From: the human T2T-CHM13v2.0 reference genome, Homo sapiens
NCBI RefSeq assembly: GCF_009914755.1
Contig: NC_060937.1
DNA: 64,000 bases
Reading direction: 5' to 3' (one strand)
The notes under the pieces were generated by a model. That model was not told where the DNA came from and did not search any database. It worked only from the letters and a program-made list of their open reading frames with translations. A program made the position numbers and the translations under genes. The first letter of the stretch is position 1, and every line of letters begins with the position of its first letter. Positions 16,489 through 17,703 of this stretch are shown here, piece by piece.

Positions 16489-17703
16489 CCCATTTGTCAA
16501 TTTTGTCTTTTGTTGCCATTGCTTTTGGTGTTTTAGACATGAAGTCCTTGCCCATGCCTATGTCCTGAATGGTATTGCCTAGGTTTTCTTCTAGGGTTTT
16601 TATGGTTTTAGGTCTGACGTTTAAGTCTTTAATCCATCTTGAATTGATTTTTGTATAAGGTGTAAAGAGCTTCTGTACAGCAAAAGAAACTACCATCAGA
16701 ATGAACAGGCAACCTACAAAATGGGAGAAAATTTTTGCAACCTACTCATCTGACAAAGGGCTAATATCCAGAATCTACAATGAACTCAAACAAATTTACA
16801 AGAAAAAAACAAACAACCCCATCAAAAAGTGGGCGAAGGACATGAACAGACACTTCTCAAAAGAAGACATTTATGCAGCCAAAAAACACATGAAAAAATG
16901 CTCATCATCACTGGCCATCAGAGAAATGCAAATCAAAACCACAATGAGATACCATCTCACACCAGTTAGAATGGCAATCATTAACAAGTCAGGAAACAAC
17001 AGGTGCTGGAGAGGATGTGGAGAAATAGGAACACTTTTACACTGTTGGTGGGACTGTAAACTAGTTCAACCATTGTGGAAGTCAGTGTGGCGATTCCTCA
17101 GGCATCTAGAACTAGAAATACCGTTTGACCCAGCCATCCCATTACTGGGTATATACCCAAAGGACTATAAATCATGCTGCTATAAAGACACATGCACACG
17201 TATGTTTATTGCGGCACTATTGACAATAGCAAAGACTTGGAACCAAGCCAAATGTCCAACAATGATAGACTGGATTAAGAAAATGTGGCACATATACACC
17301 ATGGAATACTATGCAGCCATAAAAAAGGATGAGTTTATGTCCTTTGTAGGGACATGGATGAAATTGGAAATCATCATTCTCAGTAAACTATCACACGAAC
17401 AAAAAACCAAACACCGCATATTCTCACTCATAGGTGGGAATTGAACAATGAGAACACATGGACACAGGAAGGGGAACATCACACTCTGGGGACTGTTGTG
17501 GGGTGGGGGGAGGGGGGGAGGGATACCATTGGGAGATATACCTAATGCTAGATGACGAATTAGTGGGTGCAGCACACCAGCGTGGCACATGCATACATAT
17601 GTAACTAGCCTGCACAATGTGCAGATGTACCCTAAAACTTAAAGTATAATAATAAAAGAAAAAAAAATTAAAATAAACTTAAATTTTTTACAATTAAAAA
17701 AAA
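16489..17703 (+). mobile_element. 5'-truncated, 5'-inverted (twin-primed) LINE-1, L1PA2-type
   Basis: 16489-16665 antisense ORF2 segment and 16663-17667 sense 3' end; L1PA2-like 3'UTR (ctagatgacga..tagtgggtgc, ccgcatattctc); TSD aaagaaaaaa(a)gaga at 16474-16488 and 17704-17717. Confidence 0.95.
16701..17444 (+). pseudogene. ORF2: C-terminal fragment of L1 ORF2 (247 aa open frame) inside the truncated L1
   Basis: Translation ends ...[11 protein letters not shown], the ORF2p C-terminus with its cysteine-rich region. Confidence 0.9.

What the first reader, a model, noticed from the sequence alone, without database searches (positions are those of the whole stretch)
16985..17336. Apparent gene-conversion tract between two inverted L1s of different subfamilies about 12 kb apart
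Seen: the plus-strand L1PA2-type copy and the minus-strand L1PA3/4-type copy match at six notable positions (16985/5129, 17103/5011, 17222/4892, 17247/4867, 17327/4787, 17336/4778; each pair sums to 22114). Both therefore encode IINKS, FLRHL, AALLT and NQAK, where ORF2p as I recall it has IIKKS, FLRDL, AALFT and NQPK. I count only 3 differences inside this 352-bp tract, but many just outside it (16929 and upstream; 17393 onward, with different 3'UTR subfamily diagnostics). Inference: the tract was copied non-reciprocally, most likely from the older full-length L1 into the younger one, and is 352-463 bp long. The 3 internal differences argue against an assembly collapse.
Basis: partly seen in the sequence, partly recalled or inferred. 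Interest (0 to 1): 0.8.

Follow-up and report, generated by a model that had tools for sequence, protein, structure and literature searches.

The report
Gene conversion patch between two L1s
Two old, inactive L1 retrotransposon copies lying head to head about 12 kb apart on human chromosome 13 have had a stretch of roughly 350-460 bases copied from one to the other, an ordinary example of a known repair process with no visible consequence for any gene.

Summary
Copy A is a 5'-truncated, 5'-inverted L1 on the + strand (16488-17703). Copy B is a full-length L1 on the - strand (4447-10599). They differ at 14 of 261 and 18 of 258 sites on either side of 16930-17392, but at only 3 of 463 inside it. 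All six shared variants are real.

They are not a sub-lineage haplotype:
- None of 79 other L1 copies carries more than 3 of the six.
- None of 28 copies picked for their likeness to A's or B's 3' flank carries five of the variants. 17327G occurs in 3 of these 28.
- A 36-mer holding two of the variants occurs three times in the genome: A, B and one old chr3 copy.

The tract tree joins A and B (98/96). The flank tree puts A in a younger clade without B. Both elements keep their own target-site duplications, so there was no crossover.

Best reading: non-crossover interlocus gene conversion (about 0.85). An assembly artefact and the ape orthologues could not be tested. The phenomenon is known for neighbouring transposable elements, so interest is low.

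The parts
16488..17703 (+). Copy A: a 5'-truncated L1 with an inverted 5' piece (16488-16668 is antisense, 16669 onward is sense) and an A-rich tail from about 17651 to 17703.
   Evidence: A's sense part matches B 5451-4448 at 96.1%. A's inverted piece matches B 5460-5643 at 94.0%. The two pieces adjoin in L1 coordinates, as in twin priming.
16474..16487 (+). 5' target-site duplication of A (14 nt).
   Evidence: the same 14-nt string stands at 17704-17717.
17704..17717 (+). 3' target-site duplication of A.
   Evidence: It is a direct repeat of 16474-16487, so both ends of A still belong together and no crossover or inversion has occurred.
16930..17392 (+). Conversion tract in A, maximum extent. 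The minimum is 16985-17336, marked by the first and last shared variants. It lies in the last third of ORF2.
   Evidence: 3 of 463 differences from B against 32 of 519 in the flanks, and six shared variants.
4722..5184 (-). Conversion tract in B, maximum extent. The minimum is 4778-5129.
   Evidence: Coordinates mirror A's (the sum is 22114).
4447..10599 (-). Copy B: a full-length L1 of about 6.15 kb. Its 5' end is at 10599 and its short, degenerate A-rich tail is at 4447-4470. ORF2 has an in-frame stop at 5183-5185, just 5' of the tract.
   Evidence: The 5' end reads like the usual start of a full-length primate L1 5' UTR (recognised from memory, not tested).
10600..10612 (-). 5' target-site duplication of B (12-13 nt, one mismatch to its partner).
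   Evidence: read by eye.
4435..4446 (-). 3' target-site duplication of B.
   Evidence: read by eye.

Best explanation
A and B are two independent L1 insertions of different ages, in inverted orientation. Their homologous ORF2 3' parts lie about 11.7 kb apart. Long after both had inserted, a DNA break in one copy was repaired by homologous recombination with the other copy as template. The outcome was a non-crossover (most simply synthesis-dependent strand annealing). This overwrote 352-463 bp of the recipient with the donor's sequence, including the changes the donor had accumulated by then. The flanks, the target-site duplications and the order of the intervening DNA were left untouched.

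Shown: the tract, its bounds, the uniqueness of the variant combination, the conflict between tract and flank trees, and the intact target-site duplications.

Inferred: the break-repair mechanism, and the date. The 3 differences in 463 bp give 0.65% pairwise divergence (95% interval 0.13-1.9%). At a recalled neutral rate of about 1.2e-9 per site per year this means roughly 3 million years, within a range of about 0.5-8. Two of the three differences are CpG transitions, so this is probably an overestimate.

Not resolved: which copy was the donor. I put B into A at about 55%.
For: (1) Divergence drops from 5.4% and 7.0% in the flanks to 0.65% in the tract. Fisher p = 9e-7. Allowing for the tract being generally more conserved (tract/flank ratio 0.66 over 1275 control pairs), 18.7 differences are expected and 3 are seen, Poisson p = 1e-5. 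No control pair is as extreme.

(2) There are six shared non-majority bases in the tract.

(3) The combination is unique to this pair:
- 0 of 28 best genome matches to the tract has more than 2 of the six.
- 0 of 30 copies with 16985C has more than 3.
- 0 of 20 sampled copies with 17247G has more than 2.
- The 36-mer with 17222G and 17247G occurs 3 times in 3.1 Gb: A, B and one old chr3 copy that has 3 of the six.
- Of 40 scored matches (902 candidates) to the 97-bp 17296-17392, only A and B are 100% identical.

(4) Copies chosen without regard to the tract, as the best matches to B's or A's 3' flank (15 and 13 usable), carry none of 16985C, 17103C, 17222G, 17247G or 17336T. They differ from A or B by 2.2-4.7% where the full tract is covered.

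(5) In the tract tree A and B are sisters (98/96). In the flank tree A sits in an 18-row younger clade (93/93) and B outside it.

(6) Both elements have their own matching target-site duplications, and flank types are consistent on both sides of each tract. So this was a non-crossover.

(7) The unique flank 17724-18110 has no second copy in the genome, so this is not a segmental duplication.

(8) The two copies form an 855-nt, 97% inverted repeat with an 11.2-kb spacer. For Alu elements, neighbour conversion is reported to be raised within about 10 kb (PMC6598467, parts 1-2 of 4 of the whole-text view read; PMC8230782, passages read).
Against: - The AU test on the flanks alone does not formally reject an A+B clade (p = 0.064, log-likelihood difference 18.6).
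- The 28 loci were chosen for likeness to the tract, and genome searches score only 40 of about 900-2500 candidates. Counts are therefore lower bounds, and a copy with the combination plus extra mutations could be missed.
- All three internal differences are derived in B, with A keeping the majority base. This asymmetry is unexplained, though it is compatible with chance (p = 0.25).
- The shared variants are 5 transversions to 1 transition, against 7 to 18 for copy-specific changes (p = 0.02). Plain accumulated point mutations would not be expected to look like this.
- No reads, second human assembly or ape orthologue could be examined.
Confidence: 0.85

Rival explanations
1. Chimera at insertion. 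A acquired the tract when it inserted, either by template switching of the L1 reverse transcriptase onto B's transcript or by recombination of the nascent cDNA with the nearby B copy.
For: A shows signs of a complex insertion: a twin-priming-type 5' inversion. cDNA-mediated conversion is described for yeast Ty and Tf2 (PMC6598467, part 2 read).
Against: It needs two switches, into B and back out. If the tract in A were as old as A, then 2.3-8.9 A-specific changes would be expected in 463 bp, judging from A's flanks. None is seen, with P(0) between 0.0001 and 0.10 depending on assumptions. The 0.65% tract divergence is far below A's copy-specific flank divergence of about 1.9% on its own.
Confidence: 0.04
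2. Both copies were converted by a third L1 that carries the six variants, rather than one by the other.
For: Neither flank's relatives carry the variants. One old chr3 copy (L081) shares 17222G, 17247G and 17327G and has only 1 difference from A over 17215-17335.
Against: No other copy in this genome has the combination. L081 lacks three of the six and is 10% diverged elsewhere. Its low divergence in that segment is not unusual: 2 of 20 old copies have 1 difference or fewer in the 82 sites outside the search word. Two independent conversions with near-identical end points would be needed.
Confidence: 0.05
3. Common descent. Both copies inherited the six variants from a source lineage that carries them.
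For: Single variants do recur among L1 copies: 17247G is in 1055 places and 16985C in 82. 17327G is common in older copies.
Against: No other copy has more than 3 of the six. The flanks of A and B belong to different clusters. Descent would not remove copy-specific changes from the tract alone.
Confidence: 0.02
4. Assembly or polishing artefact. Reads from one copy were used to correct the other over a few hundred bases.
For: The two copies are 96% alike over 1 kb, so short or mis-assigned reads could in principle cross-polish them.
Against: Three differences remain inside the tract, and the edges coincide with ordinary sequence differences. The copies lie 12 kb apart with unique flanks, within reach of single long reads. 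This was not testable here: no reads and no second assembly.
Confidence: 0.03

Closest known systems
Non-allelic (interlocus) gene conversion between neighbouring transposable elements, best documented for Alu (review PMC6598467; genome-wide Alu study PMC8230782)
   Same: A short mosaic tract lies in an otherwise diverged pair of repeats. Non-diagnostic variants are shared. The partners are physically close; the reviews report raised rates within about 10 kb. No crossover occurred.
   Different: The partners here are L1s in inverted orientation, 11.7 kb apart, from two different age clusters. The pre-conversion state cannot be shown without ape orthologues, which those Alu studies used.
Intrachromosomal gene conversion inside an L1 insertion (locus NCLI34 in Sen et al. 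2007, PMC1920257, passages read), and break repair by conversion from endogenous LINEs in mouse cells (Tremblay et al. 2000, seen only as reference 35 of that paper)
   Same: An L1 copy carries an internal segment of a few hundred bases (377 bp at NCLI34) whose best match is another L1 on the same chromosome.
   Different: At NCLI34 the middle segment is described as highly diverged from its flanks and inserted. Here the tract is collinear and in register, and the donor/recipient pair is identified by a unique variant combination.
L1-L1 non-allelic homologous recombination that gives deletions or inversions
   Same: The same substrate: two homologous L1s in cis.
   Different: A crossover between inverted copies would invert the 11-kb spacer and swap the 5' parts of the elements. 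The intact target-site duplications and consistent flank types show this did not happen.

Membership tests
Non-crossover interlocus gene conversion | A bounded tract of much higher identity than both flanks, beyond what local conservation explains | tested here: met
   3/463 against 32/519. The ratio of 0.105 is below all 1275 control pairs, whose minimum is 0.217. Fisher p = 9e-7.
Non-crossover interlocus gene conversion | Shared derived variants in the tract that are not a family or subfamily haplotype | tested here: met
   There are six shared variants. No other of 79 + 28 examined copies has more than 3 of them. The 36-mer with two of the variants occurs only 3 times in the genome.
Non-crossover interlocus gene conversion | Phylogenetic conflict between tract and flanks | tested here: inconclusive
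   In the tract, A+B has support 98/96. In the flanks, A lies in a younger 18-row clade (93/93) without B. However, the AU test on the flanks gives p = 0.064, just short of rejecting A+B.
Non-crossover interlocus gene conversion | Flanking markers not exchanged | tested here: met
   Each element keeps its own pair of target-site duplications, and its flank type is the same on both sides of the tract.
Non-crossover interlocus gene conversion | Pre-conversion state seen in an orthologue or another haplotype, which gives donor, recipient and date | not testable with these tools
   Only this one human assembly can be searched. It has no relatives here (banner).
Non-crossover interlocus gene conversion | Sequence of both copies confirmed by reads (not an assembly artefact) | not testable with these tools
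   No reads or second assembly are available.
L1 insertion with twin-priming-type 5' inversion (copy A) | An inverted 5' piece that adjoins the sense piece in L1 coordinates, an A-rich tail and target-site duplications | tested here: met
   The antisense piece 16488-16668 matches B 5460-5643, and the sense part starts at B 5451. The target-site duplications are at 16474-16487 and 17704-17717.
   No consensus library was at hand. Only relative clusters were defined: G/G/G against A/A/A at 17531, 17551 and 17563, plus 17398 and 17420. A carries a mix of states at 17454 and 17617, which otherwise split the younger cluster in two.

The most novel reading that the evidence does not exclude
The patch is not the trace of one simple copy event. 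It is a small region of ongoing two-way exchange between the two L1s, seeded by an error-prone repair. The six shared variants are a transversion-rich cluster (5 of 6, against 7 of 25 for copy-specific changes; p = 0.02). They would have been made by mutagenic repair synthesis in one copy and then passed back to the partner in a second conversion, which the first event made easier by raising local identity. If the event is also as recent as the 3 differences allow (possibly after the human-chimpanzee split), the locus could still vary among people.
Probability: 0.07. Interest if true: 0.45.

Novelty: new member of a known kind. Interest (0 to 1): 0.2.

Why it matters
The locus itself matters little. 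Both copies are dead: A is truncated, and B has a stop in ORF2. They lie in a gene-poor stretch with no annotated function, and the tract changes nothing that is expressed as far as can be seen.

Its value is as a clean, well-bounded example. It shows that old L1 copies which differ by about 6% in their flanks can still exchange a few hundred bases across about 12 kb in inverted orientation without inverting the spacer.

Such events distort age estimates and subfamily calls that rest on divergence from a consensus, a point made for transposable elements in PMC8230782 (passages read). A genome-wide count of such pairs in complete assemblies would give the rate, and this locus could serve as a positive control.

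Tried and rejected
- **Sub-lineage haplotype: rejected**.
- **Direction from subfamily-diagnostic sites: no result.** No site inside the tract separates the two clusters. 17327G and 17336T are no commoner among B-flank relatives (1/15, 0/15) than among A-flank relatives (2/13, 0/13). In the tract tree A+B sits next to two B-type copies, L024 and L025 (90/84). That rests on 17327G and 17336T alone and is too weak to use.
- **Direction from counts of copy-specific changes:** both directions fit.
- **Count of copies with 17327G and 17336T by a typed pattern:** A search by window reference showed only that no other scored copy is 100% identical over 17296-17392.
- **chr3 copy L081 as a third-party donor:** its low divergence in 17215-17335 is not exceptional among old copies.
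- **Recombination-hotspot motif (recalled 13-mer):** the only matches near the tract lie in the G-rich run of the L1 3' UTR (4597-4609 and 17505-17517). These are separated from the tract by five A/B differences and are present in a third L1 fragment too. This gives no support for a hotspot.
- **Segmental duplication of the locus:** rejected.
- **Papers:** Myers et al. 2002 and Tremblay et al. 2000 are not held. They are cited only as listed in PMC1920257. Searches found no paper describing this locus. That is not proof that none exists, since subscription journals are not covered.

Full report
**What is there.** The window is human chr13 (hub note). Copy A is on the + strand, with its L1 body at 16488-17703.
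- Its first 181 bases (16488-16668) are antisense L1 and match B 5460-5643 at 94.0%.
- From 16669 onward it is sense L1 and matches B 5451-4448 at 96.1%.
- The two pieces adjoin in L1 coordinates, as expected for a twin-priming-type 5' inversion.
- A 14-nt direct repeat (16474-16487 and 17704-17717) brackets the element.

Copy B is on the - strand at 4447-10599, about 6.15 kb long.
- It begins with what I recognise from memory as the usual start of a full-length primate L1 5' UTR.
- It ends in a short, degenerate A-rich tail.
- It is bracketed by a 12-13-nt repeat with one mismatch (10600-10612 and 4435-4446).
- Its ORF2 has an in-frame stop at 5183-5185.

Together the two copies form an 855-nt inverted repeat of 97% identity with 11.2 kb between the arms.

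**The observation.** I aligned A, B and the 28 best other genomic matches to the tract (40 scored of 2153 candidates).
- The six pairs of positions sum to 22114 and carry identical bases in A and B.
- Both translations read IINKS, FLRHL, AALLT and NQAK.
- Inside 16985-17336 only 17049, 17123 and 17199 differ.
- The next differences are at 16929 and 17393.

Differences are 14/261 to the 5' side, 3/463 in 16930-17392, and 18/258 to the 3' side.

**Is it more than chance or local conservation?**
- The tract region is in general somewhat better conserved than the flanks. Over 1275 pairs of 51 other copies, the tract/flank ratio of divergences is 0.66.
- Even so, A-B (0.105) lies below every control pair (minimum 0.217).
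- Among the 271 pairs whose flanks differ about as much as A and B (25-40 differences), the tract differs at 6 or more sites, with a median of 15. A and B differ at 3.
- Fisher's test gives p = 9e-7. A Poisson test with the 0.66 correction gives 1e-5, and a conditional binomial test gives 1.5e-4.
- The control set leans against my reading, because 28 of its loci were chosen for likeness to this very tract.

Single variants are not unique:
- The 21-mer with 16985C occurs at 82 places.
- The 21-mer with 17247G occurs at 1055 places.
- 17327G is the usual base in older copies.

The combination, however, is unique:
- Of the 28 best matches, none has more than 2 of the six.
- Of the first 30 of the 80 other places with 16985C, none has more than 3.
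- Of 20 places with 17247G, taken at about every fifth of the first 100 listed, none has more than 2.
- A 36-mer spanning 17222G and 17247G occurs three times in 3.1 Gb: A, B and an old chr3 copy (L081, 89.9% identical to A). That copy has 3 of the six.
- Over 17296-17392, only A and B are 100% identical among 40 scored of 902 candidates.

As a sample chosen without regard to the tract, I took the 15 best matches to B's 3' flank and the 15 best to A's 3' flank. I fetched only their tract positions.
- Two of the A set gave no alignment, and several copies are 5'-truncated.
- None of the 28 usable copies has 16985C (0 of 18 with data), 17103C (0 of 20), 17222G (0 of 24), 17247G (0 of 24) or 17336T (0 of 28).
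- 17327G occurs in 1 of 15 and 2 of 13.
- Copies that cover the whole tract differ from A or B at 10-22 of 463 sites.

**Trees.** I used the 34 copies that cover the region fully and are at least 93% identical to A; 19 older ones were left out.
- The tract tree joins A and B with support 98/96.
- The flank tree places A inside an 18-row clade of younger copies (93/93), with B outside it beside L015.
- The AU test on the flanks does not quite reject forcing A and B together (log-likelihood lower by 18.6, p = 0.064). I record this as inconclusive rather than as support.

**Which clusters the two copies belong to.**
- At 17398, 17420, 17531, 17551 and 17563, A has the states of the younger cluster and B those of the next older one.
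- At 16885 the same holds on the 5' side.
- So each element has the same flank type on both sides of its tract.
- I could not check the names L1PA2, L1PA3 or L1PA4, because no consensus library was at hand.
- A has 17454A and 17617A, which elsewhere in the sample go with different halves of the younger cluster.

**Mechanism.**
- Both elements keep matched target-site duplications and consistent flanks. No crossover took place, because a crossover between inverted repeats would have inverted the spacer and swapped the 5' parts.
- The unique flank 17724-18110 occurs once in the genome, so the locus is not part of a segmental duplication.
- The simplest account is repair of a break in one copy from the other as template, with a non-crossover outcome. 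This step is inferred, not shown.
- If A was the recipient, the transfer came well after A inserted. A's flanks carry about 10 A-specific changes in 519 sites. From that, 2.3-8.9 would be expected in the tract, and none is seen (P between 0.0001 and 0.10 by assumption). This speaks against a chimera made at insertion.
- The three remaining differences give 0.65% pairwise divergence (95% interval 0.13-1.9%). At a recalled neutral rate this is about 3 million years, within roughly 0.5-8. Two of the three are CpG transitions, so it is likely less.

**Direction.** I could not resolve it.
- No position in the tract separates the clusters.
- The flank relatives of neither copy carry the variants.
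- The totals fit both directions. Six shared plus three B-only changes match the 8.2 expected from B's flanks. Six shared plus none match the 5.9 expected from A's flanks (my arithmetic).
- All three internal differences are derived in B.

**What stays unexplained.**
- Five of the six shared variants are transversions, against 7 of 25 copy-specific changes (p = 0.02).
- L081 on chr3 shares three adjacent variants, but its similarity in that segment is not unusual for old copies.

**What is known.**
- Non-allelic gene conversion between transposable elements is reviewed in PMC6598467 (parts 1-2 of 4 of the whole-text view read). [quoted passage not shown]
- PMC8230782 (passages read) reports 98 Alu-Alu conversions in primates, in both age directions, and warns that conversion distorts divergence-based ages.
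- For L1, PMC1920257 (passages read) models locus NCLI34 as a truncated, inverted insertion followed by an intrachromosomal conversion that brought in a 377-bp middle segment. It also cites break repair from endogenous LINEs in mouse cells.
- A 2026 preprint on pangenome L1s lists gene conversion among the processes that erase fine structure in old copies (PMC13192797, passages read).
- My four literature searches turned up no description of this particular locus. Subscription journals are not covered.

**Verdict.** This is a real and clean instance of a known process, with no visible functional consequence. Its direction and subfamily names remain open, and its interest score was too high.

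Noticed in passing
window 16985, 17103, 17222, 17247, 17327, 17336: The six shared variants are 5 transversions and 1 transition. Changes specific to A or to B are 7 transversions and 18 transitions (Fisher p = 0.02). Three of the six are C-to-G or C-to-T changes at a C preceded by T on one strand or the other (read by eye). Plain accumulated point mutation would not be expected to give this spectrum.
   Followed up: partly
L081 (G000:C3:99780091-99783126): An old L1 copy on chr3, 89.9% identical to A overall, shares 17222G, 17247G and 17327G. It has a single difference from A over 17215-17335. Two of 20 other old copies are as similar outside the search word, so this may be chance.
   Followed up: yes
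genome-wide; window 17247: The base 17247G (which turns NQPK into NQAK) sits in 1055 exact 21-mers across the genome. In a sample of 20 it occurs in copies of both the younger and the older clusters. So this C-to-G change either recurs or has spread among L1 lineages.
   Followed up: partly
window 17574 and 17617 (mirror 4540 and 4497): Two further bases in the 3' UTR are shared by A and B outside the tract. 17574A is a CpG site and is the normal state of B's cluster. 17617A is rare in B's cluster (1 of 40) but common in part of A's. Copy-specific differences lie on both sides of it (17608, 17624), so a second tiny patch from A to B is possible but not shown.
   Followed up: no
window 16488-16668 and 16669 onward: Copy A has the structure of a twin-priming insertion: an inverted 5' piece that adjoins the sense piece in L1 coordinates, with a few bases lost at the junction, and a composite A-rich tail with non-A interruptions at 17651-17703.
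   Followed up: partly
genome-wide: Places with the 16985C 21-mer cluster in a few regions: four within chr2 213.1-213.6 Mb, three within chrX 102.30-102.36 Mb, and five within chr8 7.4-12.8 Mb. This looks like L1 copies carried along in segmental duplications.
   Followed up: no
window 4597-4609, 17505-17517, 51937-51949: The G-rich run of the L1 3' UTR matches a recalled 13-mer recombination-hotspot motif in all three L1 3' ends of the window. It is a low-complexity match and lies outside the tract.
   Followed up: yes
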